Shown: piece after piece, positions 31,481 through 45,115 of the stretch
Layout of the letters: the number at the start of each line of letters is the position of its first letter
Position numbering within the stretch: position 1 is the first letter of the stretch
IMG/VR virus record: IMGVR_UViG_3300042197_001533
Strand: one strand, 5' to 3'
Length of the DNA stretch: 57,566 nucleotides
DNA from: an uncultured virus (IMG/VR IMGVR_UViG_3300042197_001533)
Taxonomy: Duplodnaviria > Heunggongvirae > Uroviricota > Caudoviricetes
The notes under the pieces: model-generated
What the model saw: the letters and a program-made list of their open reading frames with translations, nothing else
Database searches by the model: none
What the model was told of the DNA's origin: nothing
Made by a program: the position numbers and the translations under genes

Positions 31481-31566
31481 GGGCACGTGGCGTAATGGCA
31501 GCCGCATCGGACTTAAAATCCGCTGGTAGTGATACCGTGTCGGTTCGAGTCCGACCGTGCCCACCA
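31481..31566 (+). tRNA. tRNA-Leu(UAA)
   Basis: Anticodon loop CTTAAAA, long variable arm, CCA. Confidence 0.95.
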
Positions 31567-31799
31567 CTTTATGAACAGATTCGATTACGATGGCCAGGCT
31601 GACCTAAACCGTTACCGGCTTCATTCACGATACGGGTCCACGTTCATCACTCTCTGTGACCGACAGATTGTTGACTCGGTTGACCATTACAATAGTCCCG
31701 ACATCTGGATTCAGAACCGAAACGAACTTCATACCACTTTGTCGGATTTGAGTCGGTTTTGGGCATTTCATCGGAACACAGTTGGCACCAGACACTAAC

Positions 31800-32042
31800 A
31801 TGATCCTAGCTGCTGCAATCCTCAAAGATGGTGTGATTTACACGGGCAAACGTCACTGTAACATCATCCGAGATACACCTAAACACCTTCGGGTGGGCAA
31901 AGGACCGCACGTTCAGGGTTTCGTTGACCACGAGGGTAATTTTTTAAATCGGGAGGAGGGGGCTAAGCACGCTAAACTCTGGGGGCAGATAGAGAAACTC
32001 AAGTTCAATTCAAAAGAACTATTTAGCGAAGATTTGTGGTAA
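31800..32042 (+). CDS. Conserved-type hypothetical phage protein
   Basis: AAAI..GKRH..QGFVD..FLNR..ELFSEDLW. Confidence 0.65.
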   Translation: MILAAAILKDGVIYTGKRHCNIIRDTPKHLRVGKGPHVQGFVDHEGNFLNREEGAKHAKLWGQIEKLKFNSKELFSEDLW

Positions 32043-32640
32043 GGCTTGACGATAAAAACTTTTAGTGTAAGATTAGAACCGTTAGAGAAACAACAAATAA
32101 AACAATACAATGAACCGAGTCCATTCGCTCCGCAAGTCAGGCAACAAGGTTAGTGTTACGCACCGTCGTCGTTACTTCGACCCCGTGAATCGTCGCTGGT
32201 CGGTGCTTTCACGTTACGAGCGTGCTCTCGCTCCTCTCCCCGATTTCGTCACCGCTGACGTTCGTGGTGGTGAGACGGAGGTTTCGCTTCGCACGAAGGA
32301 GGGCCGTGAGCTGACTGCTGTGGCGAAGTGTTCAAAGAAGGACATCTACGTGCGGTCGGTGGGATTGAATACTGCCTTGGATGGTCTGGTGTTCGAGGCG
32401 ACCAAGCCTACGGTCGTCATCTCTCAGTTTGTTACTGACCCGTGTGCATACACTCAGATGACTATCAATTTGGCTCCCGAGACAGCCGCAGGTAAGTAAG
32501 TTCTCGGTTGGAAGGAAATCCAATCAAAACCAATTAGATAATACATAATAGAAAAGTTCGTGAGCAGCTATAAAAGCTCTCTGGTGGAGGCGGTGAAAAG
32601 GAGCAGCAGCAATGTTGCTCCTTTTCCATGTCCACGGACA

Positions 32641-32666
32641 CAAAAAAACCGACTTCAAGAGTCGGT
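32641..32666 (-). terminator. Intrinsic terminator ending the tRNA array
   Basis: ACCGACT-CTTGA-AGTCGGT followed by a U run on the - strand. Confidence 0.8.
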
Positions 32667-32671
32667 GAATC

Positions 32672-32745
32672 TGGAGCCCGAGGTTGGAGTCGAACCAACG
32701 TATCTTGTTTACGAAACAAGAGTAATACCGTTATACGACTCGGGC
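32672..32745 (-). tRNA. tRNA-Thr(CGU)
   Basis: CTTGT-TTCGTAA-ACAAG, CCA. Confidence 0.9.
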
Positions 32746-32750
32746 GAAAC

Positions 32751-32824
32751 GGAGCTCCTTATTGGAATCGAACCAATGTTCCCGCATTACCAATGCGGAG
32801 TAATAGCCATTATACTAAAGGAGC
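32751..32824 (-). tRNA. tRNA-Thr(GGU)
   Basis: CCGCA-TTGGTAA-TGCGG. Confidence 0.9.
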
Positions 32825-32830
32825 AGACTG

Positions 32831-32906
32831 CTACGGTTGGCGGGCTCGAACCACCGACTCCGGCATTTATACGTCGCCGGCTATGTTACCGCTACACCAA
32901 ACCGTA
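32831..32906 (-). ncRNA. tRNA-like RNA with 11-nt anticodon loop
   Basis: TACGGTT/AACCGTA acceptor, normal D and T arms, CCGGC-GACGTATAAAT-GCCGG. Confidence 0.7.
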
Positions 32907-32914
32907 AGAAAATT

Positions 32915-32992
32915 GATGCGGATTTCACGCGGCCCCACGGGCCGTTTTGTTGTTCCCATCTGGGGGTACCTCCCAGTCAGGTCTATCGCATT
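32915..32992 (-). ncRNA. GAUAGAY..GUGAAAUCC motif RNA, copy 2
   Basis: ATGCG-ATAGACCTGA..two hairpins..GTGAAATC-CGCAT. Confidence 0.6.
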
Positions 32993-33022
32993 CTTGTGAA
33001 CTTAGTTACTACATTTGCAACA

Positions 33023-33093
33023 TTAATCGTATGGAATCGAACCATATCCTTTAGGCCTAGCTGGCCTCTGTGCATCCACTACACCACAATCAA
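33023..33093 (-). pseudogene. Atypical tRNA (loop CAGCUAG; nominal GCU, A33, no Ser variable arm)
   Basis: TTGATTG/CGATTAA, GAGGC-CAGCTAG-GCCTA, TATGG-TTCGATT-CCATA. Confidence 0.6.
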
Positions 33094-33120
33094 TGTCACA
33101 ACCTTCTTCTCATCACAAAC

Positions 33121-33196
33121 TGGTAGGTCCGTAGGGATTTGAACCCTAAACACGACGTTCGAAGCGTCGGATGATATCCAGTTTCACCACGAACCC
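33121..33196 (-). tRNA. tRNA-Arg(UCG)
   Basis: CGACG-CTTCGAA-CGTCG, CCA. Confidence 0.92.
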
Positions 33197-33599
33197 ATTA
33201 AATCAAATCCAGAAGGTATGAATGTCTTTGTCCTCATCGTGAGTGACCTGAACACTACCAAACTTAAATTCATTACCGTTCTCTTCCACCTGTCGGGCAA
33301 ACTCTGACACCGAACCGAAGATTTCTTCGATCAGATTCTCGTTTGTGCAGTTTCCCAATCTATCCATGTTTTTCATAAAATCAATTTCCGCCCATCAACT
33401 GAGCAAGTTCGTGTTGCCAAATGTGTTCCGCTTGTTTTACTTTCTGCGGTTCACCTTTATCGTTCACCCAGATGTGGGTCCAAACAATCATACTCACCGT
33501 TCCACCGTCAATCTTTCCGGTGCCCTTTAAGTAAGTATCTTCATTGCCAGTGATAATCACGGGTACAATTTACCACGATTTTTTATATTGTCAAGGGGA

Positions 33600-33675
33600 T
33601 GGTTGCAGCCGTGGGAGTCGAACCCACCTATTCTGTCTTATGAGGACAGCGCCTAATCCGCTCAGCCAGACTGCA
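33600..33675 (-). tRNA. tRNA(CAU), Met or Ile2
   Basis: CTGTC-CTCATAA-GACAG, CCA. Confidence 0.88.
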
Positions 33676-33734
33676 ATGAAATGTTACGGGAAGACTTATG
33701 CCGTAGCTGCTCCTTGAGGCCACCGTATTGGCAC

Positions 33735-33815
33735 TGGTTGGCCCGACCAGCACTCGTCCTGGCTCTCTTCCGCTTATGAGGCGGGCGCTTATACAAAGAT
33801 TTAAGCTTCGGGCCA
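33735..33815 (-). tRNA. tRNA(CAU) with atypical T-loop
   Basis: CCCGC-CTCATAA-GCGGA; T-loop GACGAGTG; CCA. Confidence 0.75.
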
Positions 33816-34342
33816 ATTCAAATCAAAGTTTCTCAATCTTCAAATCCGTCGGAGGATACACCTTCGAGATAAGTGTGACCTTTCCAACGAAAAACGGGCC
33901 AGACTCTTCGCCGTCGGCCTTGTAAATACGTCGAATGTCATTCAACGCACTATTTTCCTCCCGGTAAAAACACGGCGTGTCACTTGTCGAACCGTTTTCA
34001 TCGGTGATCTCGTGGTCTTCGTTGAGAATGACGTAAGGGAATTCCATTTTGTCTGAGTTCATAGGAGACAATCTTACACCACTTCTTTTAGATTACAAGC
34101 CCCTTCTTCTTCAAAGTGCGCTTGAAAACGGTTGCATCACCAATCTCGTTCCAACTTGATTTCCGACCAAGAATGTGTCGGATGGCGTTGAGTGCGTCGA
34201 AGTTGGTCAAACTCTTGCCCTTTGTTCCACCGGGAATAGAATCAGCGGTGTCAAGGACTTTGTTGATGGTTTCTACAAGTTCAGCGGGATGTTTCATGTA
34301 GGACAACTCTACCACTTTTTATCGAATTGTCAACCGATTTTC

Positions 34343-34433
34343 TGTAGTCCTATCCAGAATCGAACTGGCCAGTACCCCAATCTAGGGATTATACGTGTTA
34401 TAAGCACGCCCATGCACCTTACATCTTAGGACC
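34343..34433 (-). tRNA. tRNA(UAU), nominal Ile, with long variable arm
   Basis: GCGTG-CTTATAA-CACGT; V-arm ATCCC-TAGATT-GGGGT. Confidence 0.75.
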
Positions 34434-34835
34434 ATTCTAAATTAAAATTCTGTAAGTGAAGTCTTTCATCGGCCATGCACCGCTGGTCAACCAATACTTT
34501 CGGTTTTTCCAATCACCGACATCTCCACTCAACTGTTTAAGGATACTATCAATCTGAGGTTTGTCAATGTTGATTGTATTGACGTAAATCTTTCCTTGGC
34601 GGTTTCTCACCTTGACCATGAAAGCACCTGAGATTTCAGTGCAGTCAACCATTGACACGATGCGTTTACGGAGTTCTTCGGTGGTCATTTGAATTAAATA
34701 GAGTAAGATTGGTAAATTGACGCCACATCCATTTTCTTGCGGTATTCATCTTTGTAGAGAGTGTCGGGAGCCAGTTTATAAAGCTCATACCAATAACACC
34801 ACTCCAAGTAATACCAATATCTTTTTTTCATAAAA

Positions 34836-34910
34836 TGGTTGTCATGGGGAATTTTGAAATCCCGGCCCTTCCCTTATCAAGAGAACGCTCTGCCTCTGAG
34901 CTACATGACA
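34836..34910 (-). tRNA. tRNA-Ile(GAU)
   Basis: TTCTC-TTGATAA-GGGAA, CCA. Confidence 0.88.
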
Positions 34911-35022
34911 ATAAAACCATGACGGAATAACACTGCCGTAGTTGGCTACGGATCCAATAGGTAATCGTGCACGGTAACAAACCGTTGAAAACCACGCCTA
35001 CGTTACAGTTACACCGTCAAGA

Positions 35023-35098
35023 TGGTGCGCCCGGCGAGACTCGAACTCGCGACCAAGTGGTTAAAAGCCACCTGCTCTACCAACTGAGCTACAAGCGC
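35023..35098 (-). tRNA. tRNA-Lys(UUU)
   Basis: GGTGG-CTTTTAA-CCACT, CCA. Confidence 0.95.
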
Positions 35099-35325
35099 AT
35101 GAACTAAATGTTGTCGGGAGCAGTCTCATACCCTTCCGTGTATCCCTTGATGTAATGGTTCCGTTCTGCGAGGGACCATTCTTTTGGGAAGGGGAATGTG
35201 CTTTTGGCTTTCAAACCGTGATAACTATCGTTCCAACCGTCTTCAAGACCCGACTGCCACGCTTCAAGGTTTGCTTTCATCTGGGACAACTTTACCTTAA
35301 AACGATAAAAAGTCAACTACTAAAT

Positions 35326-35401
35326 TGGAGCACCGTGTAGGAGTCGAACCTACTTGAAACTCTTTTGCAGAGAGTTGCCTTGCCGTCCAGACCCACGATG
35401 C
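35326..35401 (-). tRNA. tRNA-Cys(GCA)
   Basis: ACTCT-CTGCAAA-AGAGT, U73, CCA. Confidence 0.92.
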
Positions 35402-35407
35402 ATTAAA

Positions 35408-35626
35408 TTACTTCTTTTTCTTCTTCAACCCCTCACCACGATAGTTCCACGCGTCAAGTGCCTTCAAAAAGTTTCGGTCATCTGACTCATAGACACCGGG
35501 GCCAGAAGCACCACAGTTCACACAAATCGCTTGTGTCGGAACGCCTTCACGGTCTTTCGTTCCTCGTTGGAATTCAACTTCTTCTTCGTTGCCACAGAAT
35601 GGGCAAGGTTTAACGTCGAGTTTCAT
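35408..35626 (-). CDS. Lar-family restriction alleviation-like zinc-finger protein
   Basis: KPCPFCG...CVNCGASGP...AWNYR. Confidence 0.75.
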   Translation of the reverse strand: MKLDVKPCPFCGNEEEVEFQRGTKDREGVPTQAICVNCGASGPGVYESDDRNFLKALDAWNYRGEGLKKKKK

Positions 35627-35665
35627 TTGTAGGACAACTCTACCACACTTCTTTTAATTGTCAAG

Positions 35666-35739
35666 TGGCAGTCCCTGATGGAATCGAACCACCATCGTAG
35701 CTTTCAGAGAGCTCCGTAATACCACTATACCAAGGGACT
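35666..35739 (-). tRNA. tRNA-Gln(CUG)
   Basis: Loop CTCTGAA, G73, CCA. Confidence 0.88.
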
Positions 35740-35744
35740 ATAAC

Positions 35745-35818
35745 TGGCTGGGACGGAGGGACTTGAACCCCCAATCTTCTCGTTCAAAGCGAGGTGCAAT
35801 ACATTATGCTACATCCCA
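35745..35818 (-). tRNA. tRNA-Gln(UUG)
   Basis: Loop CTTTGAA, TGGGATG acceptor, CCA. Confidence 0.9.
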
Positions 35819-35827
35819 ATAAAGGCC

Positions 35828-35957
35828 GACGGGATTTCACTGGTTTACATCTTGTAGTTTCCACCTTTGCAGCCGGCGGTGGTCGCAACTACTAATGCTT
35901 ATCAACCTATTCTGTTACTCATCCCACTTAGAAGAGGGCCTTTCACATCTATCCGTC
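35828..35957 (-). ncRNA. GAUAGAY..GUGAAAUCC motif RNA, copy 3
   Basis: GACGG-ATAGATGTGAA..hairpins..GTGAAATC-CCGTC. Confidence 0.6.
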
Positions 35958-35963
35958 TAAAGT

Positions 35964-36040
35964 TGGTGGGCCGGATGGGACTCGAACCCATATCGCAACG
36001 CTTAAGAGGCGCGCATCTAATCCAGTTGAACTACCGACCC
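35964..36040 (-). tRNA. tRNA-Lys(CUU)
   Basis: Loop CTCTTAA, CCA. Confidence 0.88.
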
Positions 36041-36142
36041 ATATTCCGTTGTTGGACTTTTACCAACGTCAGTGGCCTCATGGCGGACGGAAAAGAAGAC
36101 CTAACAGATTAAGCATTATTAAGAGGCTTGTTAGGTATGATA

Positions 36143-36217
36143 TGGTGCATCCACCCGGACTCGAACCGAGATCGCAAGGTTTAAAAGACCCGCATCTTCC
36201 ATTTGAATTATGGATGC
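36143..36217 (-). tRNA. tRNA-Lys(UUU)
   Basis: Loop CTTTTAA, CCA. Confidence 0.88.
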
Positions 36218-36226
36218 ATAACCGAC

Positions 36227-36300
36227 TGAGCTCCTTCCCGGAATCGAACCGAGTTGTCAAGTTTACAAAACTCGTGCATCACCATTTATGCTTAAGGAGC
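36227..36300 (-). tRNA. tRNA-Thr(UGU)
   Basis: CGAGT-TTTGTAA-ACTTG. Confidence 0.9.
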
Positions 36301-36309
36301 GAACTGAAA

Positions 36310-36384
36310 TGGGGTGATATACGGGAATTGAACCCGCGCTGACTTCTTCACAGGAAGTGATGCTACCATTACAACAATATCACC
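36310..36384 (-). tRNA. tRNA-His(GUG)
   Basis: ACTTC-CTGTGAA-GAAGT, G-1:C73, CCA. Confidence 0.92.
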
Positions 36385-36404
36385 ATTCTACTAAAATCGG
36401 CATC

Positions 36405-36489
36405 GAGATTAAGGATTTCACATTATTCCAACCAGTTGACCCCAGCGGGGTTCTTGGTTACTGATCAAGTTTTACGTCTATCTTCTCTC
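36405..36489 (-). ncRNA. GAUAGAY..GUGAAAUCC motif RNA, copy 4
   Basis: GAGAGAAG-ATAGACGTAAA..hairpins..GTGAAATC-CTTAATCTC. Confidence 0.55.
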
Positions 36490-36494
36490 CGCAC

Positions 36495-36570
36495 TGGTGC
36501 CTTTACATGGACTCGAACCAAGAATTTCACTTTCGTAGAGTGACGTGATTTCCAATTTCACTATATAGGC
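36495..36570 (-). tRNA. tRNA-Arg(ACG)
   Basis: TCACT-CTACGAA-AGTGA, CCA. Confidence 0.9.
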
Positions 36571-36579
36571 AAACTAAAC

Positions 36580-36654
36580 TGGCTCCCAAGGAAGGACTAT
36601 GCACCCTCTCGTCACGGTTAACAGCCGCGCATGCTACTTTAACATTACTCGGGA
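36580..36654 (-). tRNA. tRNA-Asn(GUU), atypical T-loop
   Basis: CGCGG-CTGTTAA-CCGTG; T-loop TGCATAGT; CCA. Confidence 0.8.
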
Positions 36655-36674
36655 ATAAAAACTAAATCACACTC

Positions 36675-36758
36675 TGGCTCGGGCGGCACGACTTGAACGT
36701 GCAGTTGCTTTCGCGGCGCATTAACAGTGCGCTGGGTTTACCATTCTCCTACACCCGA
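36675..36758 (-). tRNA. tRNA-Asn(GUU) with extended variable arm
   Basis: GCGCA-CTGTTAA-TGCGC; V-arm GC-GAAA-GC; G73, CCA. Confidence 0.85.
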
Positions 36759-36770
36759 ATTAAACCAACA

Positions 36771-36842
36771 GGTCCTCACGGCAGGATTTGAACCCGCAAG
36801 ACGCGCTAATCAGGCACGTATGTTACATTACATCACATGAGG
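36771..36842 (-). tRNA. tRNA(GAU), nominal Ile, with U37
   Basis: CGTGC-CTGATTA-GCGCG; 5' end overlaps the stop of the HNH gene. Confidence 0.7.
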
Positions 36843-37403
36843 ATTTTTATGGTAAATCTTTTTTACTAACTCGAAAAATCTTTCTTGGGATAAATCCCAC
36901 TTCATAGTATTGACATTTTTAGTCACCCATTGAACATTGTTTTCTGTATATCCAAAGGAACTGTCTATTCTATCTAAAGAAGTGGTTCGGTCGTTAACCC
37001 CCTTAGTTCCTGACCCGAAGGTTATATCCTCACCCGATAAAGCACATTTTTTGTTTTGTTTAAGAAACAGTTCCCATAGAAACTCGATTGTCACATCGAA
37101 TGTCAATCCCCTCTTTACTGAGTCGGATTTTATTTTGTTAAAATAGGATAAACTAATATCTTCATATCCTTTCCAACGACGGTTTCTCTTTCCTCTTTGT
37201 CGATTATTACAACCACAGCTTGTTCGAGAACCATCTTTCAAATAACGAGATTCAGCTGTCGTTGAATTTCCACATTCACATTGACATTTCCATAAAGCAT
37301 GACGACTTTTTGTTAAGTCATAAAACTCTATAACTGTCAATTTTCCAAACTTTTGGTTTTTAATGTCTATCATATTATTCCAATAAGTAGTAATGATAGA
37401 CAC
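36828..37403 (-). CDS. HNH-type homing endonuclease inserted in the tRNA array
   Basis: N-terminal KFGKLTV..WKCQCECGN..SCGC module, C-terminal CALSG..SLDRIDSSFGY..NVQWV..VNTMK; visibly AT-richer than its flanks. Confidence 0.85.
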   Translation of the reverse strand: MSIITTYWNNMIDIKNQKFGKLTVIEFYDLTKSRHALWKCQCECGNSTTAESRYLKDGSRTSCGCNNRQRGKRNRRWKGYEDISLSYFNKIKSDSVKRGLTFDVTIEFLWELFLKQNKKCALSGEDITFGSGTKGVNDRTTSLDRIDSSFGYTENNVQWVTKNVNTMKWDLSQERFFELVKKIYHKNPHVM

Positions 37404-37422
37404 TAAACGATTACTTATTTAT

Positions 37423-37497
37423 GCGGGATATACGGGACTTGAACCCGTTCTTGCGCCGTGACAGGACGCTGTTGCTAAACCCTTACACTAATATCCC
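37423..37497 (-). tRNA. tRNA-Asp(GUC)
   Basis: GCGTC-CTGTCAC-GGCGC. Confidence 0.9.
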
Positions 37498-37506
37498 ATA
37501 AACTAA

Positions 37507-37580
37507 GGTCCCGATGGTCAGACTTGAACTGACAACGCGTCGCTCTTCAGGCGACCGCTCTACATTGGAGCTACATCGGG
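37507..37580 (-). tRNA. tRNA-Phe(GAA)
   Basis: GTCGC-CTGAAGA-GCGAC. Confidence 0.9.
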
Positions 37581-37701
37581 TTAAGATTTTTGACCTTTCG
37601 TTGGTAGCAAGAATTTCTCAACTCTTACCGGCGACTCCGTTCACTGGACCGCCTCTACGGTCTGACATTTTTTTATGGGAAACAGACTAAAAACCCAAAG
37701 C

Positions 37702-37734
37702 AAAAAACCGTCAACTACTTTCGGAGGTTGACGG
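37702..37734 (-). terminator. Attenuator-type intrinsic terminator upstream of the tRNA array
   Basis: CCGTCAAC-CTCCGAAAGTA-GTTGACGG-TTTTTT on the - strand. Confidence 0.85.
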
Positions 37735-37775
37735 CGACATTCGGAACTTTACACGAAATATCAGCCGTTGCCTCC
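37723..37775 (-). promoter_or_regulatory. Antiterminator hairpin overlapping the leader-peptide end and the terminator 5' arm
   Basis: GGAGG-CA-ACGGC-T-GATATT (37775-37757) pairs with AATGTC-GCCGT-CAA-CCTCC (37741-37723). Confidence 0.8.
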
Positions 37776-37817
37776 TTGGCAATCGCGCTTAATAAAATTG
37801 TGTTTGGTTGTCATCAT
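37761..37817 (-). CDS. 18-aa leader peptide MMTTKHNFIKRDCQGGNG
   Basis: Translated by hand (below the ORF-track cutoff); ATG 10 nt downstream of TATACT, like the other leaderless genes. Confidence 0.8.
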   Translation of the reverse strand: MMTTKHNFIKRDCQGGNG

Positions 37818-37827
37818 TACGTCAATA

Positions 37828-37855
37828 AGTATAGACCGAGTTTTCTAAAAGTCAA
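37828..37855 (-). promoter_or_regulatory. Promoter of the leader/tRNA array
   Basis: TTGACT-N16-TATACT. Confidence 0.9.
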
Positions 37856-37878
37856 ATTTTTTCTTCTTTTTTCTTTTC

Positions 37879-37960
37879 TGTAGCAGGCGTGGAAGTCGAA
37901 TCCACCATAGCTTTCGCAGAGGTTATGAGCCTCTCTAGCATCCCACGGCTTGTGCCTGCA
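37879..37960 (-). tRNA. tRNA(CAU), initiator-like 1:72 mismatch, extended variable arm
   Basis: AGAGG-CTCATAA-CCTCT; V-arm GC-GAAA-GC. Confidence 0.75.
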
Positions 37961-38047
37961 ATTGTTTAGGTGTGTTACAAGTATCTGTATCAGGAACTTT
38001 TACGGGTATTATTCCGACCTGTTAGTTTCATGCTTACATGCACCAAA

Positions 38048-38124
38048 TGGTATCGCCGATGGGAGTCGAACCCACATCATCCTGATTGAAAATCAAGTAT
38101 CCTAATCCATTAGACGACAGCGAC
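38048..38124 (-). tRNA. tRNA-Glu(UUC)
   Basis: CTTGA-TTTTCAA-TCAGG, CCA. Confidence 0.9.
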
Positions 38125-38192
38125 ATTAAACTTACAAAGAACAACCAACTTCATCTACTCTACACTACTTTCTAAATCCGTCAACTACTTTC

Positions 38193-38299
38193 GGGACGAA
38201 TGGGCGGGACTCGAACCCGCCGGCCTGTCTGTTTATCCCATTTTTACGGCATCTTTTACCATCATAGGGCAGACCGATCTACCACTGAACTACATCCGT
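38193..38299 (-). ncRNA. tRNA-like RNA with ~38-nt nested-stem insert replacing the anticodon loop
   Basis: ACGGATG/CATTCGT, D-arm, GTCTG..CAGAC enclosing CCCTAT/ATGGG and ATGGTA/TGCCGT, GCGGG-TTCGAGT-CCCGC. Confidence 0.75.
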
Positions 38300-38300
38300 T

Positions 38301-38374
38301 TGGAGCGAGATATGGGAATCGAACCCATGCGCCAAGTTTGGAAAACTCGAAGGCTACCATTACATCAATCTCGC
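38301..38374 (-). tRNA. tRNA-Gly(UCC)
   Basis: CGAGT-TTTCCAA-ACTTG, U73, CCA. Confidence 0.92.
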
Positions 38375-38377
38375 ATT

Positions 38378-38470
38378 TGGTGCTGTCGGCAGGAGTCGAA
38401 CCTGCAGCGTTTGATATTATCTCAATCGGGATAGAAGCCCGAGCCGATCATCCATTCCGGTCACGACAGC
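38378..38470 (-). tRNA. tRNA(UCU), nominal Arg, on a class II (Leu-like) body
   Basis: TCGGG-CTTCTAT-CCCGA; V-arm TTGA..TCAA; A73, CCA. Confidence 0.78.
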
Positions 38471-39038
38471 AATTTAAAGAACAACACCAATATATAGTAG
38501 GAAATTCAGAAAGTCAACCACTTTTTTAACCACCACATTGAAATTCTATGACTGCGTGAACACTTCCATCCTTTATCGAAAACGTCGCGTCGTCAACCTT
38601 TGCGACAATATCCGTGGGTTTATAATCCATCAACCACGAATCACAAACGCTTTCGTCAAACTCTACATACGGAGGAAAAATTAATGCATCAATTCCAGCG
38701 GTCGTTGTGGCAGCCAACTTCCGCATATCCATGTAATCGTAAGACCGTTGGATTGCGTCACTCATTTCACTGAATGAAAATGCCGGTAGCGATTAACACC
38801 ACCGGCATCTTCACGATTTTTATCCGTTAATTGTAGAGCAGCCCGTAAAGAGCTCCCTTGCCAGAACCGACTCGGCGGCCGTTGGCGTCGGTCACATAGT
38901 CACCTGACTTGTAGTAATACCCACAGTTGCCGCTGCCCATCTTTCGTGCTTGAGCATTCCCATTGGATTCAGTGTGAATGAATCCAACAATCTGATTACG
39001 CCCGTCTCTTACCGTTTCTTCGTTCATGGTTTGTTTTG

Positions 39039-39353
39039 TTAGTCGCGGACGTTACGCAACTCAGCAGGAGTATATTCGACCTGCTTGATGACCTTGTAGG
39101 TTCCCGTAGGAATCTCAATGGTTGAATGCTCTTGGTGAGTCAAGTCAGCGGAAGGGCCGGTGACTTCGACATACTCCACGAGCGCATCCACATCGGAAGC
39201 GTAGCCGGTGGCTCCAGCATGAATCGTGTGGTGGTGGCCGGTGACTTCACCGAGGGCCAACGTGACACGCTTGGTCTGCTTGAGTCCGGTTGGGATTGAG
39301 GTTACAGGGACGACGAGAACATCGCCTTGACGATAGATTTTGTTTGATTTCAT
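39039..39353 (-). CDS. Conserved phage protein (RQGDV / GEVTGHHH / HQEH family)
   Basis: Motifs YRQGDVL, LGEVTGHHH, HQEH, QVEYTP. Confidence 0.7.
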   Translation of the reverse strand: MKSNKIYRQGDVLVVPVTSIPTGLKQTKRVTLALGEVTGHHHTIHAGATGYASDVDALVEYVEVTGPSADLTHQEHSTIEIPTGTYKVIKQVEYTPAELRNVRD

Positions 39354-39403
39354 AATGTGTTTGGTTCTACTGTTAAATATACTACCGCAGATGATTCCAT
39401 CTG

Positions 39404-39784
39404 TCAACCGTTAAATTTACGATTGCAGACCGTTAGGTGTAGGCCCCAATAGTTAGGACCGTCGTCCACGCCGAGGAGCTTTTTGATGGCGTCACCATAC
39501 TCACACTCGACCGGAATCCAATAGTTAACCCGGCTCTCGTAAGTCTTCTCAGGGTAACAGGTGAACTCCACGGTCCGACCATGATACTTCCGAGCATCCT
39601 CCCACTTTACTTTATGGAGCTTAGGGTTGACTAAAGTAACGTGACAACCGTGAGCAGGGAGTTGGAGCTTCTCCGTCCGGTAGTTGTGGAAGTCAATCAA
39701 CCGATGGTAGTAACGAATCAGGTCGAGGTCGCCGATGATTCGGATACCGTCCTGAACTTGAATTTTACCAATGGTCTTGAACAC
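39404..39784 (-). CDS. Putative 2H phosphoesterase
   Basis: Two HxT motifs (CHVTLV, LHLTV) about 70 aa apart. Confidence 0.65.
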   Translation of the reverse strand: MFKTIGKIQVQDGIRIIGDLDLIRYYHRLIDFHNYRTEKLQLPAHGCHVTLVNPKLHKVKWEDARKYHGRTVEFTCYPEKTYESRVNYWIPVECEYGDAIKKLLGVDDGPNYWGLHLTVCNRKFNG

Positions 39785-40822
39785 GGACTTAATTTACCAC
39801 CATTTTATAGAAAGTCAACCCGCAACACAGTCTTCGAGTGCATCTCTCGTAAAATCATCCACTACCAGCGAAAGTTGGTCGGTTGCTGGATTAAATTCAT
39901 GTCGGATTTCGAGGTGAATTCGTTGGGTGGTGTCTGTGTCAGCATCCCAAGCAGGATTCTCTGTCTCACTACCTACAGTTTCCCACTTGAAAAGACCTTC
40001 CATATAGTTGTTTATTAAGGCCAGGGATAGGCCAGGAACCGCTTAGACGGTCAGTTTGACCTTGGACAGTAGGGGATGGTAGGAGATTTCCTTCTTGCAG
40101 TAGGATGTTTCGCTGTCCCGTTCCACCAAATACGTCTTGTCACCGTATGCAACCACCAGATAGTCAACGTCTTTCGGACCATCGTGGAAGAGGAGTTTGA
40201 TGATGGTTTCCTTGATCTTTGAGGTATCCTCAAGGTCAATGACGGCTGCCTTTGACGCAGGGCAGAAGTCTCCTTTAACGGTATCGAAGTAACCGGTCTG
40301 GCGGATGGGGAGGATTTTAGCAACGATGGTCATAATTCTACACTTGGTCTAACGGCACACGGTGTTCAGGTTTTCGTTTGTCGATAATCTCGTTCGGGTC
40401 CAATGAAATTTCCATCCGATTTGAATGCCAGTCAGCAACCCCAAGCGGGTCGTAGATTTCACTGATATGAAAGGATATATCGTCAAATTGTCTCCGCATT
40501 TTAGAGGTGATTGGACCACCGCGTTCTGTGGCTCGCCGAGTATTCCCTCGGACGGCTCTCATTACGTTAGGCTTCTTCATTGAGGAATTATCTTACCACT
40601 GTTTTATAGAAAGTCAACGACTAAATGTCCGACGTTGAATCCCGTGCTGCATCTTCAATTACATTCCACGATCCCACCGCTTGAGCTGCCCTCGCGAACC
40701 CCGGTACGGATTCCGTTCCAACCCATACTTCAGTCCGCGTTTCACTCGATATTGAATGCTGGGCTATATCCACCCTCACATTCGTCGCAGCGGTCCACAT
40801 TGCATTCTCCGTTGAAGTCATG

Positions 40823-42202
40823 TTAGGCGAAGAGTCGGATACCACTGAGCAAGTCATTGTCGTTCAGAGTGGAGAGGTTGTCAAGCCGTCCCTGCACCCT
40901 CTCGGCAGCCCTCTCCTCAATGGTGTCAGCACTGAACACAATCTTCTGTAGGCAACGGGTCAATCCACCCTGACGGGCGATACGTCCGAGACATTGAAGG
41001 AGGTTGACTGCGCTGAAGGATGGAACCACCAACGAATTTCGAGGAAACTTTCCGTTCAGGTCGTGAAGGTTGACCCCCGAGCTTCCGGCTGCGAGGTTGA
41101 CCAACATGATACGCTTCGTATCCGCGTTGAATTCGTTGATGTCCTTCTCACGAGCCTTATCAGTTTGACCACCGACAATCTTGGCGATAGTCTTGTCCAA
41201 CCGCTTGTCAGCCTTCAACCGATTCTCCAAAGCCTGAATGCTGTCGGTGAAGTTGAGGAACACCACGGGGGAGATACCCTCGTCGTAGAGGTCTGTGACC
41301 GTATCCACGAAGGAAGGAATCTTCAACAGTTCGGCCCGGCGACGAGCCTCCATGATGATGGCGAAGACGTGGGCCTTGTAGTTAGCAGCACGCCCGTCCA
41401 ATCGGTCAAGCTCATACTGCATCACTTCATAGACACGATTAATCTTGGCCGTATTCTGGCCCATGTCGAAAGTCTCGGCGGTGATATGGTTCTCAGGGAA
41501 GATACCATCGAACATATCCACAGTCATGCGACTCGTGGATTTCTGTAGATTGAAGAGAGCGTTGTGAACTTGTTGCATCCCTTGTTTCGCCTTCGGAGAA
41601 GACATATCAATAGTCATACCACCGAATTGATTTAATTCAGCTCCACCCTCTTTGCAGAACTTGCTGAAGTTGTAACCAAGGTGAAGGTTGGTGGCGAAAC
41701 CGAGGGCCTTCAACTCAAGGGGATTGGTCGCCGCCGTGGCGCTCATCATCAAGAGTTTGTAACCATGATTCTTACAGGCCACGAGGAAGTCGCTGTTGAG
41801 GCTGGTGTATCCCTTACACTTGTGAACCTCGTCGGTGATGACCAAGCTCGTCTTGGGGAAGTGAAGGTGAACGCCGACGGATTCCCACTTCTTCTTATTG
41901 CGGTGAGCCTTCTTGTCGTAGGTCAACCACTTGGTATTTCCACGGCAGAGCTTCTCGTAGTTAATCACGAGAGGTTGGTTGATTCCAAACGAAGCGAGAA
42001 CTTTCTTCCACGCGGGGATGACCACCTTCGGGCAGACCACCACGACGGGGACGTTCAACTCCTTGGCCACCGCACAGGCCACGTAAGTCTTGCCGGTGCC
42101 AGTGTCGGAGAGGTCGGCAGCGTAACCATTCAAATAGATGGAATCCAACAGCGTTCTGGCATGGTCACGTTGGGGTTCGAGCAATTGAGCAGAGTTAGTC
42201 AT
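40823..42202 (-). CDS. SF2 (SNF2-like) helicase
   Basis: DTGTGKT, DEVH, MSAT, GVNLHD, QCLGRIAR. Confidence 0.9.
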   Translation of the reverse strand: MTNSAQLLEPQRDHARTLLDSIYLNGYAADLSDTGTGKTYVACAVAKELNVPVVVVCPKVVIPAWKKVLASFGINQPLVINYEKLCRGNTKWLTYDKKAHRNKKKWESVGVHLHFPKTSLVITDEVHKCKGYTSLNSDFLVACKNHGYKLLMMSATAATNPLELKALGFATNLHLGYNFSKFCKEGGAELNQFGGMTIDMSSPKAKQGMQQVHNALFNLQKSTSRMTVDMFDGIFPENHITAETFDMGQNTAKINRVYEVMQYELDRLDGRAANYKAHVFAIIMEARRRAELLKIPSFVDTVTDLYDEGISPVVFLNFTDSIQALENRLKADKRLDKTIAKIVGGQTDKAREKDINEFNADTKRIMLVNLAAGSSGVNLHDLNGKFPRNSLVVPSFSAVNLLQCLGRIARQGGLTRCLQKIVFSADTIEERAAERVQGRLDNLSTLNDNDLLSGIRLFA

Positions 42203-43336
42203 GTCTAAAGAGAATACCACGGAATTATAAAATGTCCACAACTATCTTAGGAACTTGGGCGAAGTTTAAATCTGTCTTTCACAGACCGAGGGTCCAACTG
42301 CGGAGCCACACTGGAACATTTCTCACCGACGGGGTGGAAATTACCTTGACACTCATCCATTGTTGCTTCATGGATTAAAGAAGTTATCAACTGTAAATGT
42401 CTGGTTTCGACCATACCAATATCGACGGTTTTGAATTTATTATTAGTCATAAATGGGATAGGAGTAAAGACGTTTGACACGTTTACGTTTGGTGGCACCA
42501 TTCTTGAGCAGCCACTCACGAAATTCCTTGACAGTCAACCGAGTGCGAAACTGAAGTTCATCAGCACCGATGTTGAAGTATGCACCGCCGAAGTGGTGCC
42601 ACTTGTCTTGAAGGGTGATCCGATTTGGGGTAGCGGAACAGATTTCCACATACTTTACCTCGGAGAACTTGACTCCACAGGTAAACCAGTCGGCGAGGAG
42701 TTTGACGTTCTTCTTATCTTGTGCGTTCATCGTTGAACCAGATTACCACCGATTTATAAAAAGTCAACTGGTTTCAGCAAAATCCCTCGTTGCAGCATCT
42801 ATTGTATCCGCCCTTAAAACCCACGCTGTAGCATGCATTTCAGACTGCGTTGAAATCCTCGTTGCAAGCGACGTTGAATCCTCCGTTAAAACCCACGTTG
42901 TATCCCGCGTTGCAACCTCTGTTGCAGACCGCGTTACAGACCGCGTTGCATTCCCCGATTTAGATTGTGTTTTAGTCGTTATAAATCAAAAATCTGTAGT
43001 TCTTCAACTTGGGATGGCGTTGAACGTCATCGAAGCTGGGAGTGAACAGCCAGTTGATCACTTCACCCTCATCGTCACGAGTTTCTTTAAATAAGGTCAC
43101 GAGAATGGTCTGACCGGTGCCGGGGTTGCAAACCATGAACCCAACATCACACGCGTCATCGTAAATCCGCTGAAACAGTTGTGCGTCACCAATATCAGAC
43201 GCTTCCGCGATGAACAATTGTTTGCTGGAATCGTGGGTGAAGATTTGAAGTCTGACCGGCGTTTTAAGACGAAGATTCATGTAGGACAATCCTATCAGAC
43301 TTTTTATCGAAGTCAACCAGTTTCTCTAAAATAAGA

Positions 43337-43368
43337 CTCCGTGGAGCAGGTTTAGCCACTCCACGGAG
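43337..43368 (-). terminator. Probable terminator hairpin
   Basis: CTCCGTGGAG..CTCCACGGAG inverted repeat, T-rich downstream on the - strand. Confidence 0.6.
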
Positions 43369-43410
43369 GTTTCCCCTAATTTGACCCTCTCAAGGCGTCA
43401 TCAGCAAATC

Positions 43411-43764
43411 TTAGGCCTCGACGGCCGGAGCCGGAACAGCAACGGAGGTCGCCGGAAGGTTCACGAGCTTACGATACTTCGCGATGTCAACCCGCTTGAT
43501 GGCGAGCTTGAACTGGGAGAGGCCAGCGCGATACTTGGTGCCGGTGCCGTGAACGGTGGCGTCGAAGGTCTGGTCCACGGGGATAAACACAACGGTGCGG
43601 TCGGCCTTGCCGTCCTTGTTCGGGCGACCACGACCAACGGGCTGGCCGTTGAGGAGGACGACACGCTTCAGAGTGACCTTGGTGCGAGGACGACCAGGGC
43701 CGCGCTTCTCAGCGACGGGGGTTTCAACGGTGGCGGTGGGGGCGGTTTCGGTGATGTTCTTCAT
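43411..43764 (-). CDS. Basic AT-hook-like DNA-binding protein
   Basis: KRGPGRPR and GRGRP motifs. Confidence 0.6.
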   Translation of the reverse strand: MKNITETAPTATVETPVAEKRGPGRPRTKVTLKRVVLLNGQPVGRGRPNKDGKADRTVVFIPVDQTFDATVHGTGTKYRAGLSQFKLAIKRVDIAKYRKLVNLPATSVAVPAPAVEA

Positions 43765-44996: not shown

Positions 44997-45041
44997 ATAA
45001 CAGTTTTTCCTTTTTAGTTGTTTATTTTTGATTTAACTTAC

Positions 45042-45115
45042 GGAGCGGGTGGAAGGCATCGAACCTCCCCTTCCGAGCTGGTCGCCCGGCGTGCTCCCCA
45101 CGACACTACACCCGC
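45042..45115 (-). tRNA. Gly-bodied tRNA with ACC anticodon and G33
   Basis: GCGGGTG/CACCCGC-U73; CCGGG-CGACCAG-CTCGG. Confidence 0.7.

What the first reader, a model, noticed from the sequence alone, without database searches (positions are those of the whole stretch)
37702..37855. Ribosome-sensing attenuator whose leader peptide spells out the amino acids of the downstream phage tRNA array
Seen (- strand): promoter TTGACT-N16-TATACT, then an 18-codon ORF ATG ATG ACA ACC AAA CAC AAT TTT ATT AAG CGC GAT TGC CAA GGA GGC AAC GGC TGA (MMTTKHNFIKRDCQGGNG), then an intrinsic terminator, then ~20 tRNA genes. The last codons plus stop (GGAGGCAACGGCTGATATT) are complementary to the terminator 5' arm (AATGTCGCCGTCAACCTCC), forming a mutually exclusive antiterminator. 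Codons 1-14 use the set M,T,K,H,N,F,I,R,D,C,Q, which is exactly the nominal amino-acid set of the canonical tRNAs downstream (Phe, Asp, Ile, Asn, Arg, His, Thr, Lys, Gln, Cys, Met). Both Lys codons and two Thr codons are sampled, matching the UUU/CUU and UGU/GGU genes; A, E, L, P, S, V, W and Y are absent from both lists. Established: his/trp-type attenuation logic; host anticodon nucleases such as PrrC deplete tRNAs during infection. Inference: full translation covers the antiterminator and terminates, while stalling on any depleted tRNA permits read-through, giving an inducible multi-tRNA sensor for counter-defence. I know of no described case. Caveats: stalls at late codons may partly mask the antiterminator, and internal promoters (~35660, 35312, 34330, 33590) could transcribe distal tRNAs independently.
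Basis: partly seen in the sequence, partly recalled or inferred. Interest (0 to 1): 0.97.

Follow-up and report, generated by a model that had tools for sequence, protein, structure and literature searches.

The report
Translation-gated terminator inside phage tRNA array
An uncultured giant phage keeps a tiny, probably translated 18-codon gene wired to a stop/go RNA switch in front of eleven promoter-less tRNA genes, so it probably makes those tRNAs on demand when ribosomes read slowly; this has not been shown by experiment, and I found no published case for tRNA genes.

Summary
The promoter, 18-codon ORF, intrinsic terminator and competing hairpin are all present at 37855-37702 (- strand). 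They are conserved in 6 related uncultured-phage contigs. The promoter hexamers are kept while the spacer diverges. The ORF is 55-57 of 57 bases identical. The post-stop hairpin and the terminator show compensatory changes. The start codon lies 10 nt after the -10 box with no Shine-Dalgarno, as in 45 other genes of the window, so translation is plausible. Folding with a ribosome mask gives trp-like behaviour. An untranslated leader or a ribosome at codons 12-19 favours the terminator. A ribosome stalled at codons 2-11 favours the antiterminator. Only 0-1 of 300 ORF shuffles reproduce this. The next 11 tRNA genes have no promoter of their own.

- The element sits inside the array, not at its head. 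Arg, Gly, Glu and Met tRNAs lie upstream.
- The exact match between peptide and tRNA set is statistically rare in this window but does not co-vary. It holds in 2 of the 6 arrays long enough to judge, while the leader stays almost unchanged.
- Synonymous sites are frozen, so the RNA sequence itself is constrained.
- A conserved structured RNA follows the terminator.

This scan has noted similar cassettes on other phage DNA. I found no published description. There is no expression data.

The parts
37828..37855 (-). Sigma-70-type early promoter: -35 TTGACT (37855-37850), 16-nt spacer, -10 TATACT (37833-37828), A-rich tract upstream. The predicted start is about 37822.
   Evidence: The hexamers are kept in 7 of 7 homologues while the spacer diverges (10/16 in L022, 8/16 in L017). 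It belongs to the same class as about 70 promoters in the window.
37761..37817 (-). Leader ORF of 18 codons plus TGA. The ATG lies 10 nt after the -10 box, with no Shine-Dalgarno (near-leaderless).
   Evidence: It is 55-57 of 57 nt identical in 6 homologues, with no indel and the stop kept in 7 of 7. Its geometry matches 45 promoter-proximal ORFs of at least 30 aa. Only 1 of 15 conserved-aa codons differs synonymously from L017, against 289 of 498 in 5 neighbouring genes.
37763..37789 (-). P1 hairpin (anti-antiterminator, possible pause hairpin): codons 10-18, 10 bp with two bulges and an AAGGA loop.
   Evidence: RNAalifold consensus and single folds. The sequence is invariant apart from a bulge base (L006) and one broken pair (L017), so there is no covariation.
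37736..37762 (-). P2 hairpin, starting in the stop codon. Its sequence is variable but the pairing is kept.
   Evidence: The segment is 18-23 of 26-28 nt identical. L017 has an entirely different 9-bp helix at the same place, which is compensatory.
37723..37775 (-). Antiterminator: GGAGG/CCUCC and ACGGC/GCCGU stacked on P2. It excludes both P1 and the terminator.
   Evidence: In 0, 1 and 0 of 300 ORF shuffles the terminator is displaced as strongly. These specific pairs are invariant, so there is no covariation for them.
37702..37734 (-). Intrinsic terminator T1: 8-bp stem, 11-nt loop, U6.
   Evidence: -11.6 kcal/mol. In L017 one base is lost from each arm and the helix stays perfect.
37592..37700 (-). 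Conserved structured RNA between T1 and tRNA-Phe. It comprises a GGG/CCC hairpin or possible pseudoknot with GUCUG/CAGAC (37696-37660) and a three-way junction (37662-37592). Five of 7 relatives also carry an extra 7-bp hairpin just after T1.
   Evidence: RNAalifold: 12 of 27 pairs have compensatory changes, and the G-U pairs fit the - strand. There is one copy per record. No Rfam family matches. Its function is unknown.
35666..37580 (-). The gated block: 11 tRNA genes (Phe, Asp, Ile, Asn, Arg-ACG, His, Thr-UGU, Lys-UUU, Lys-CUU, Gln-UUG, Gln-CUG). It also holds an HNH endonuclease ORF (36828-37403) and an abiF-RNA motif. There is no strong promoter until 35664.
   Evidence: The leader samples 10 of these 11 anticodon species.
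37880..38517 (-). Upstream part of the same array: promoters at 38517 and 38184, tRNA-Arg(TCT), Gly(TCC), a tRNA-like stretch, Glu(TTC) and Met(CAT). Their transcripts also run into T1.

Best explanation
This is a ribosome-mediated (leader-peptide type) transcription attenuator in the middle of a jumbo phage's tRNA array.

Shown by sequence and comparison:
- There is a strong early promoter, a conserved 18-codon ORF, three successive hairpins (P1, P2, T1), and an alternative long hairpin that uses the ORF's last codons and the terminator's 5' arm.

Inferred:
- The transcript starts 3-5 nt before the ATG and is translated like the phage's other near-leaderless early genes.
- If no ribosome is present, or the ribosome runs to the stop codon, P1 or the ribosome keeps the ORF end away from the terminator arm. 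T1 then forms and transcription stops, from this promoter and from the two upstream tRNA promoters alike.
- If a ribosome lingers with its A site at codons 2 to about 11 (Met, Thr, Thr, Lys, His, Asn, Phe, Ile, Lys, Arg), it covers the 5' arm of P1. The ORF end then pairs with the terminator arm, and RNA polymerase reads on through a conserved structured RNA into 11 promoter-less tRNA genes.
- The output is therefore a demand signal: slow decoding gives more phage tRNA, and restored decoding gives less.

Whether the codon choice is tuned to the gated tRNAs is open. The terminated RNA of about 115 nt may have a second role, because its sequence is frozen even at synonymous sites.
For: - Promoter: the hexamers are invariant in 7 of 7 sequences while the spacer diverges.
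- Translation is plausible. The -10 to ATG distance of 10 nt without a Shine-Dalgarno is the rule in this phage: 45 ORFs of at least 30 aa sit behind promoters of the same class, including a Lar-family gene.
- Conservation begins at the ATG and ends at the TGA. Against L017 the 5'UTR is 8 of 13 identical, the ORF 55 of 57 and the post-stop segment 18 of 28.
- The terminator has a compensatory double deletion, and P2 is fully re-paired in L017.
- Ribosome-mask folding gives mean P(T1) of 0.15, 0.22 and 0.36 for stalls at codons 4, 6, 8 and 10. It gives 0.99-1.00 at the stop codon and 0.42, 0.97 and 1.00 with no ribosome.
- The three-state behaviour appears in 0 of 300 shuffles for each of window, L004 and L017.
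- There is no promoter with more than 9 of 12 consensus matches between T1 and 35664, so 11 tRNAs depend on read-through.
- The leader covers 10 of the 11 anticodon species of that block. None of 45 real N-termini reaches 10, and 130 of 56,033 six-frame windows do.
Against: - There is no expression, end-mapping or ribosome data, and the host is unknown.
- Translation of an mRNA with a 3-5 nt leader is inferred from the phage's gene layout only.
- The antiterminator-specific pairs and P1 are invariant, so covariation supports only P2, T1 and the downstream RNA.
- The three homologues tested share these invariant arms and are not independent.
- In the window itself the untranslated leader gives only P(T1) 0.42.
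- There is no run of one regulatory codon, as classical attenuators have.
- Five of 7 relatives carry a second hairpin right after T1. If it terminates, it would blunt the switch. It is AU-rich and separated from the U-run by GGGG, so I think it does not.
- Synonymous sites are frozen (1 of 15 codons against an expected 58%; P about 5e-5). Neither the peptide nor tRNA identity explains this, which points to an extra or different RNA-level function.
- In L017 and L002 HNH endonuclease genes sit between the cassette and the tRNAs.
- The family is small: 7 sequences in about 3-4 lineages.
Confidence: 0.5

Rival explanations
1. The leader was built as a multi-tRNA sensor whose codons deliberately match the tRNAs it gates, and it serves as inducible counter-defence against host anticodon nucleases. 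This is a special case of the best explanation, not exclusive of it.
For: - Codons 1-14 are a subset of, and equal to, the downstream amino-acid set. Among six-frame windows, 6 of 56,033 are subsets and 1 is equal.
- None of 45 real N-termini is a subset.
- The family-wise rate is 6 of 60,000 shuffles for equality and 0.0025 for subset.
- Ten of the 11 anticodon species of the promoter-less block are sampled.
- The stall position that best favours read-through is the AAG Lys codon 10 (P(T1) 0.01-0.19).
- The window encodes two RNA ligases of the kind phages use to repair cleaved tRNA (the repair role is established knowledge for T4 Rnl1, recalled).
Against: - There is no co-variation. The leader stays almost fixed while arrays gain Glu(CTC) (L019, L022, L017), Ala (L019) and Val (L017). 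L021 lacks His, and the held 12 kb of L017 lacks Phe, His and Cys.
- Equality holds in 2 of 6 arrays.
- L006 replaces the Asp codon with Gly although tRNA-Asp is present.
- One low-depth metagenome contig reads two changes in codon 4 that would give Pro, for which no tRNA is encoded here.
- Codons 12-14 (Asp, Cys, Gln), which the equality needs, lie outside the predicted sensitive window.
- The cut at codon 14, the dropping of the Ser call and the use of only downstream tRNAs are post hoc choices, and the finding was selected from a scan of very many windows.
- A/C-rich unstructured 5' coding sequence favours these amino acids anyway. The subset rate rises from 6e-4 to 5e-3 when dinucleotides are kept.
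Confidence: 0.3
2. A stand-alone unit. The promoter, an 18-aa micropeptide gene and/or a small RNA of about 115 nt, and a plain terminator that insulates two parts of the array. On this view the alternative pairing has no regulatory role, and the downstream tRNAs are made by constitutive leak-through.
For: - The unit has its own promoter and a strong terminator.
- Nucleotide-level invariance of the 5' 40 nt, beyond coding needs, is typical of a base-pairing or protein-binding RNA.
- T4's tRNA cluster also carries stable small RNAs of unknown function (recalled, not checked here).
- An extra hairpin follows T1 in 5 of 7 relatives.
Against: - The ORF end is complementary to the terminator arm far beyond chance.
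- Conservation coincides with the ORF boundaries.
- In L004 and L017 the 5' region is paired in the untranslated fold, so it is not a free seed.
- No complementary target longer than 12 nt was found in the window.
- Eleven tRNA genes would be left without a promoter.
Confidence: 0.2
3. An untranslated RNA switch, or part of one long structured RNA. Leader, terminator region, pseudoknot-like element and three-way junction (about 240 nt) would form one processed non-coding RNA cut off tRNA-Phe by RNase P. Alternatively the T1/antiterminator choice is set by a protein, small RNA or tRNA rather than by a ribosome.
For: - A conserved, covarying structured RNA directly follows T1 (12 of 27 pairs compensatory). 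It always travels with the leader, one copy per record.
- Synonymous sites in the ORF are frozen.
Against: - The ATG stands at the position used by 45 genes of the phage. I estimate the chance of an ATG in that 3-nt window at about 5% (my arithmetic, not a tool result).
- The frame and stop are kept in 7 of 7 sequences, with no indel in 57 nt, while indels occur on both sides.
- No Rfam family, T-box or riboswitch matches.
- No complementarity to the phage's tRNAs was found.
Confidence: 0.12

Closest known systems
Leader-peptide transcription attenuators of enterobacterial amino-acid operons (trpL, hisL, thrL, ilv and leu leaders). Mechanism recalled from textbook knowledge.
   Same: A short ORF sits just after the promoter. 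There are four pairing regions (1:2, 2:3, 3:4) and an intrinsic terminator. The stop codon is placed so that a finishing ribosome blocks the antiterminator. The untranslated leader is predicted to terminate.
   Different: There is no run of one amino acid's codons: 11 different amino acids occupy 14 codons. It gates tRNA genes, not biosynthetic enzymes. It is phage-borne, uses a near-leaderless mRNA without a Shine-Dalgarno, lies inside an operon-like array that also receives upstream transcription, and has no sequence similarity or Rfam match.
whiB7 / wblC uORF attenuator of Actinobacteria (PMC10274678; I read the abstract only).
   Same: Stalling in a uORF gives antitermination. By that abstract, the uORF is activated by inhibition of many amino-acid, tRNA and tRNA-synthetase genes. 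It is thus a broad translation-stress sensor whose response depends on uORF coding content.
   Different: It controls a transcription factor in a bacterium. That uORF is Ala-enriched. No homology was tested or is expected. Here the output is the tRNA supply itself, which would close a direct feedback loop.
T-box riboswitches.
   Same: A terminator/antiterminator choice reports on tRNA status and controls translation-apparatus genes.
   Different: A T-box binds uncharged tRNA directly and needs no ORF. No T-box match was found here.
Attenuator-derived small RNAs such as rnTrpL of Sinorhizobium (PMC6614838; seen only in a search listing with the start of its abstract).
   Same: The terminated leader transcript is itself a trans-acting RNA. 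This would explain the frozen synonymous sites here.
   Different: No target is known here. This is speculation from conservation only.
Stable small RNAs (species 1 and 2) in the phage T4 tRNA cluster.
   Same: Non-tRNA structured RNAs are embedded in a phage tRNA array that also holds homing endonuclease genes.
   Different: No sequence similarity to any record of the phage collection apart from a tRNA. The T4 RNAs have no known ORF/terminator switch.

Membership tests
Leader-peptide (ribosome-mediated) transcription attenuator | Short ORF just downstream of the promoter with a credible translation start | tested here: met
   An 18-codon ORF is kept in 7 of 7 sequences. The ATG lies 10 nt after the -10 box, as in 45 other ORFs of at least 30 aa in the window. 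Translation itself has not been observed.
Leader-peptide (ribosome-mediated) transcription attenuator | Intrinsic terminator between the ORF and the regulated genes | tested here: met
   An 8-bp stem plus U6, -11.6 kcal/mol. L017 shows a compensatory loss of one base on each arm.
Leader-peptide (ribosome-mediated) transcription attenuator | Antiterminator mutually exclusive with the terminator and overlapping the ORF end | tested here: met
   In 0, 1 and 0 of 300 ORF shuffles the terminator is displaced as strongly. There is no covariation in these particular pairs.
Leader-peptide (ribosome-mediated) transcription attenuator | Anti-antiterminator, so that the untranslated leader terminates | tested here: inconclusive
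   The P1 hairpin appears in the consensus fold. Equilibrium P(T1) without a ribosome is 0.42 (window), 0.97 (L004) and 1.00 (L017).
Leader-peptide (ribosome-mediated) transcription attenuator | Ribosome position decides the fold (stall early gives read-through, reaching the stop gives termination) | tested here: met
   In silico only. P(T1) is 0.01-0.55 for A-site codons 2-10 in most cases, with two higher values (0.69 at L017 codon 7, 0.76 at L004 codon 9). It is at least 0.86 for codons 12-19.
Leader-peptide (ribosome-mediated) transcription attenuator | Run or enrichment of codons for the one amino acid that is sensed | tested here: not met
   Eleven different amino acids occupy codons 1-14, and no sense codon is used more than twice. 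It would be a broad sensor, not a classical single-amino-acid one.
Leader-peptide (ribosome-mediated) transcription attenuator | Regulated genes depend on read-through (no promoter of their own) | tested here: met
   No promoter of the phage's class lies between 37700 and 35664, only two overlapping 9-of-12 consensus matches. Eleven tRNA genes are affected.
Leader-peptide (ribosome-mediated) transcription attenuator | Read-through responds to ribosome stalling in vivo or in vitro | not testable with these tools
   No RNA data could be used. This needs reporter, Term-seq or coupled in-vitro assays.
whiB7/wblC-type broad uORF attenuator | uORF whose stalling under many different amino-acid or tRNA shortages gives antitermination | not testable with these tools
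   The architecture is compatible. The defining response is experimental (PMC10274678, abstract only).
T-box riboswitch | Match to the T-box leader model (specifier loop, T-box bulge) | tested here: not met
   No Rfam match at E up to 1 over 28000-47000, nor at E up to 10 over 37570-37880.
Stand-alone trans-acting small RNA | Own promoter and terminator, with a conserved accessible seed that has a complementary target | tested here: inconclusive
   The promoter and terminator criteria are met. The 5' 40 nt are invariant, but they are paired in the untranslated fold of L004 and L017. The longest complement in the window is 12 nt. Host targets could not be searched.

The most novel reading that the evidence does not exclude
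The cassette is a closed-loop gauge of tRNA supply. The ten codons in its stall-sensitive window are each read by a tRNA species encoded in the array downstream of the terminator. Most of these lie in the eleven-gene block that the terminator gates. A shortage of any of them, whether from phage codon demand or from a host anticodon nuclease cutting Lys, His, Asn or similar tRNAs, switches on transcription of their replacements and shuts off again once decoding recovers. The terminated leader RNA has a second, sequence-specific job in trans, which would explain its frozen synonymous sites. Similar cassettes noted by this scan in unrelated phages would then make this a widespread, undescribed way of regulating tRNA genes.
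Probability: 0.3. Interest if true: 0.88.

Novelty: new variant of a known kind. Interest (0 to 1): 0.62.

Why it matters
Phage tRNA genes are now seen as counter-measures to codon mismatch and to tRNA-cleaving host defences, but how their expression is controlled is almost unknown. A leader-peptide attenuator gating a tRNA block would extend a classical mechanism from amino-acid supply to decoding supply. It would give the phage a self-limiting, demand-driven tRNA response.

It also offers a compact, testable element of about 150 nt for reporter assays with defined tRNA depletion. The window further shows a phage whose early genes are almost all near-leaderless, which bears on how such mRNAs are translated in its unknown host.

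Tried and rejected
- RNA evidence: the look-up of sequencing runs listed no RNA holder. The only run (X1, small share, probably DNA contigs) was laid. It shows related variants but says nothing on transcripts.
- Known RNA families: nothing at the element. The only hit is a GA-cis match at E 1.4 and 15 bits against a cut-off of 34.7, which I rejected as chance.
- Cultured relatives: the phage collection has no similar DNA apart from one tRNA-sized match. The best rIIA relatives are 25-35% identical, so no annotated genome could be used.
- More homologues:
  - Five DNA-pattern scans and two protein-based scans of viral contigs always gave the same 5 contigs.
  - One metagenome scan gave 1 new contig.
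  - Two genome-contig scans gave 0.
  - A whole genome for the window is not held.
- + strand ORF 37728-37883 (51 aa): rejected. The one frequent substitution is non-synonymous in that frame (my reading).
- T1's 3' arm as the -35 of a promoter for tRNA-Phe, suggested by a 17-mer shared with the promoter at 38184: rejected. The spacer to any -10-like hexamer is 19 nt, and relatives have a 20-nt insertion there.
- AAGGAGG as a Shine-Dalgarno for a downstream gene: no start codon lies at a usable distance.
- CsrA-type sponge (GGA in loops): inconsistent between homologues.
- Hammerhead or other ribozyme reading of the three-way junction: the junction strands do not fit the hammerhead core as I recall it, and no Rfam match was found.
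- Extra copies of the downstream RNA: none.
- Complex prediction and the structure tools were not used, as no protein question arose.
Full report
WHAT IS THERE

On the - strand the window reads, in order:
- an A-rich tract;
- the -35 box TTGACT (37855-37850), a 16-nt spacer and the -10 box TATACT (37833-37828);
- 10 nt, then ATG ATG and 16 further codons ending in TGA (37817-37761, MMTTKHNFIKRDCQGGNG);
- a hairpin that starts in the stop codon;
- an 8-bp hairpin with an 11-nt loop (37734-37708) followed by T6.

The consensus scan lists the promoter at 10 of 12 matches. It does not list the terminator only because it accepts loops of 3-8 nt. The hairpin folds at -11.6 kcal/mol.

ARAGORN finds 29 tRNA genes in the window. 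Twenty-one lie downstream on the same strand (37580 to 32672), and Rfam confirms 18 of these 21 at its gathering score.

The element is not at the head of the array.
- tRNA-Arg(TCT), Gly(TCC), a sub-threshold tRNA-like stretch, Glu(TTC) and Met(CAT) lie directly upstream on the same strand. They sit behind promoters at 38517 and 38184, so their transcripts also run into the terminator.
- The window belongs to an uncultured giant phage. The related contigs of 17-74 kb are rated 6-21% complete.
- It carries rIIA and rIIB, two RNA ligases, a Lar-type gene and HNH endonucleases.
- The nearest cultured phages share only 25-35% identity in rIIA. No whole genome is held.

The window holds about 70 promoters of the form TTGAC(T/A), 16-17 nt, TAnnnT.
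- Forty-five of them are followed within 6-13 nt by the ATG of an ORF of at least 30 aa, with no Shine-Dalgarno sequence. Near-leaderless early mRNAs are thus the rule in this phage.
- The 18-codon ORF has exactly that geometry.
- I take this as the main argument that it is translated. An ATG at that spot by chance is about a 5% event (my arithmetic).

RELATIVES

Exact and degenerate pattern scans found the cassette in 5 IMG/VR contigs (L002-L006, with larger pieces L019-L022) and one further metagenome contig, L017. None was found in prokaryote genomes.

L017 is the informative one, because its protein genes are 68-79% identical in DNA to the window's. Segment by segment against the window:

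| Segment | L017 vs window |
|---|---|
| -35 | 6/6 |
| Spacer | 8/16 |
| -10 | 6/6 |
| 5'UTR | 8/13, with a 3-nt insertion |
| ORF plus stop | 55/57 |
| Post-stop segment | 18/28 |
| Terminator hairpin | 23/27 |
| U-run | 7/7 |

- In L022 the spacer is 10/16 identical with the hexamers kept apart from one base. This pattern argues for a working promoter.
- The terminator of L017 has lost one base from each arm and remains a perfect helix.
- The post-stop hairpin P2 of L017 has a completely different sequence that again forms a 9-bp helix.
- Across the 7 sequences the ORF has no indel and keeps its stop.
- It shows three substitutions: ACC to ACT (synonymous; L004/L021, L006, L017), GAT to GGT (D12G, L006) and AAC to CAC (N17H, L017).
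- A short low-depth contig of run X1 reads two changes in codon 4 that would give Pro. This is weak evidence.

THE RNA SWITCH

The consensus fold of the 7 leaders gives three successive hairpins:
- P1 covers codons 10-18, with 10 bp, two bulges and an AAGGA loop (37789-37763).
- P2 spans 37762-37736.
- T1 is the terminator.

The alternative fold stacks GGAGG/CCUCC and ACGGC/GCCGU on P2 (37775-37723). It excludes both P1 and T1. This is the 1:2, 2:3, 3:4 layout of the trp attenuator (mechanism recalled).

I masked the 28 nt that a ribosome would cover and computed the probability of the terminator pairs.
- With no ribosome, P(T1) is 0.42 (window), 0.97 (L004) and 1.00 (L017).
- With the A site at codons 2-10 it is mostly 0.01-0.55. 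The lowest value in all three is at codon 10 (AAG).
- At codon 11 it is 0.45-0.81.
- At codons 12-19 it is 0.86-1.00.

In dinucleotide-preserving shuffles of the ORF, the stalled-ribosome value was as low as observed in 0, 1 and 0 of 300. The full three-state pattern appeared in 0 of 300 each.

Caveats:
- These are equilibrium calculations.
- The footprint size is a textbook value.
- The antiterminator-specific pairs are invariant, so they lack covariation.
- The three homologues share them.

WHAT THE TERMINATOR GATES

Between T1 and the next promoter of the phage's class (35664) lie 11 tRNA genes: Phe, Asp, Ile, Asn, Arg-ACG, His, Thr-UGU, Lys-UUU, Lys-CUU, Gln-UUG and Gln-CUG. An HNH gene and an abiF-RNA motif lie there too. 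The only consensus matches in this stretch are two 9-of-12 sites, which lie inside an ORF and a tRNA. These tRNAs therefore seem to depend on read-through of T1.

THE 'SPELLING' CLAIM

In this window it is statistically unusual.
- The first 14 residues are a subset of the 11 downstream amino acids in 6 of 56,033 stop-free six-frame windows. They are equal to that set in 1, the leader itself.
- Composition-preserving shuffles give 6e-4 (mono) to 5e-3 (dinucleotide) for subset, and 1e-5 to 3e-4 for equality.
- Correcting over 4 definitions of the tRNA set, 9 cut-off positions and both statistics gives 6 of 60,000 for equality and 0.0025 for subset.
- None of 45 real promoter-proximal N-termini has residues 2-11 or 2-14 all in the set. 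The mean share in the set is 0.57.
- The leader samples 10 of the 11 anticodon species of the gated block. None of the 45 real N-termini reaches 10, and 130 of 56,033 windows do.
- Against the whole tRNA repertoire (15 amino acids) the whole peptide is unremarkable (about 0.02-0.03).

Comparison with the relatives speaks against design.

| Record | Downstream tRNA set relative to the window's 11 amino acids |
|---|---|
| Window, L020 | Same set |
| L019 | Adds Glu(CTC) and Ala(TGC) |
| L022 | Adds Glu(CTC) |
| L021 | His not found in 16 kb |
| L017 | Adds Glu(CTC) and Val(TAC). Phe, His, Cys and Lys(CTT) not found in the 12 of 23 kb I could hold |
| L006 | Contig too short to judge |

- The leader is the same throughout. 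L006 changes its Asp codon although tRNA-Asp is present.
- Three of the 11 amino acids needed for equality (Asp, Cys, Gln) sit at codons 12-14, outside the predicted sensitive window.
- The match was also picked from a scan of very many windows.
- I therefore treat tuning of the codons to the gated tRNAs as possible (about 0.3) but unproven. I treat exact equality as partly coincidence.

A CONSTRAINT THAT NO SIMPLE READING EXPLAINS

Between the window and L017, 289 of 498 codons with a conserved amino acid differ synonymously in five genes. In the leader the figure is 1 of 15 (P about 5e-5).
- Peptide selection cannot do this.
- tRNA identity cannot either, since C/U third positions are read by the same tRNA.
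- RNA structure explains codons 10-18. It does not explain codons 2-9, whose pairing partner changed in L017.
- The leader RNA may therefore have a sequence-specific role as well, for example as a trans-acting RNA after termination, as reported for rnTrpL (PMC6614838, listing only).

DOWNSTREAM RNA

Between T1 and tRNA-Phe lie two structures. The first is a GGG/CCC hairpin that could form a pseudoknot with GUCUG/CAGAC (37696-37660). The second is a three-way junction (37662-37592).
- Twelve of 27 predicted pairs have compensatory changes, and the G-U pairs fit the - strand.
- There is one copy per record and no Rfam match.
- Five of 7 relatives have an extra AU-rich 7-bp hairpin just after T1. 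It is separated from the next U-run by GGGG, so I doubt that it terminates, but this is untested.
- The function of this RNA is unknown.

COMPARISON AND NOVELTY

The cassette works like a leader-peptide attenuator and meets the architectural criteria. It fails the criterion of a run of one regulatory codon. In logic it is closest to broad stall sensors such as the whiB7 uORF, which responds to inhibition of many amino-acid, tRNA and synthetase genes (PMC10274678, abstract read).

Five literature searches found no paper describing leader-peptide control of tRNA genes or phage tRNA arrays. Subscription journals are largely outside that library.

This scan has noted similar cassettes on other phage DNA. 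These are unchecked AI notes, and several rejected the codon-matching claim while keeping the switch. I use them as leads only.

VERDICT

The best explanation is a translation-gated terminator controlling a tRNA block (confidence 0.5). The deliberate 'spelling' of the tRNA set is not established.

Noticed in passing
window 36099-36135 (-); L020 7914-7950 (-): An Rfam abiF RNA motif (40.8 bits, cut-off 37) is inserted between tRNA-Lys(UUU) and tRNA-Lys(CUU) in the window and its closest relative. It is absent at the gathering score in L017, L018, L019, L021 and L022, where the two Lys genes abut. A phage-borne copy of an Abi-associated RNA might act as a decoy.
   Followed up: partly
window 1-57566, e.g. 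4789, 5177, 15799, 24857 (+); 42767, 35664 (-): There are about 70 promoters of the form TTGAC(T/A), 16-17 nt, TAnnnT. Forty-five are followed within 6-13 nt by the ATG of an ORF of at least 30 aa, without a Shine-Dalgarno. This is an early region made almost wholly of near-leaderless genes. Genes inside operons also have A/C-rich, G-poor upstream regions.
   Followed up: partly
window 37592-37700 (-): A conserved structured RNA (possible pseudoknot plus three-way junction) lies between the terminator and tRNA-Phe. Twelve of 27 pairs covary. It has no Rfam family and occurs once per record.
   Followed up: partly
window 38178-38196 (-) and 37708-37724 (-): A 17-nt exact repeat is shared by the terminator's loop plus 3' arm and the -35 region of the promoter in front of tRNA-Glu. 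It looks like a degenerate second copy of the terminator after a tRNA-like stretch (38196-38299).
   Followed up: partly
window 39356-39366 (-) and 37799-37809 (-): An 11-mer from leader codons 3-7 recurs in the 5'UTR just before the start of gene 39039-39407. It may be a shared ribosome-recruiting or unstructured A/C-rich element.
   Followed up: no
window 42782-42962; L017 7248-7777, 9100-9237, 10735-11012: A stretch of about 140 nt in the window matches at least 7 places in L017 at 69-78% identity. It is a repeated unit or small paralogous gene family.
   Followed up: no
window 36828-37403 (-); L017 5117-5749 (-), 4121-4972 (+), 2788-3495 (-); L002 after 3141: HNH homing-endonuclease genes are inserted at different places in the arrays of different relatives, including directly after the cassette in L002 and L017. 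They probably drive the turnover of tRNA content.
   Followed up: partly
L021 8965-9041 (+); L022 9693-9769 (-): A tRNA with an ACG anticodon loop and an unusually long extra arm replaces the ordinary tRNA-Arg(ACG) in two relatives. ARAGORN misses it, and Rfam scores it at 36-37 bits.
   Followed up: partly
window 12413-13504 (+), 5691-6707 (+), 35408-35626 (-): Two RNA ligase genes (T4 Rnl1-type and RNA_ligase family) and a Lar-type restriction-alleviation gene suggest a counter-defence tool kit near the tRNA array.
   Followed up: no
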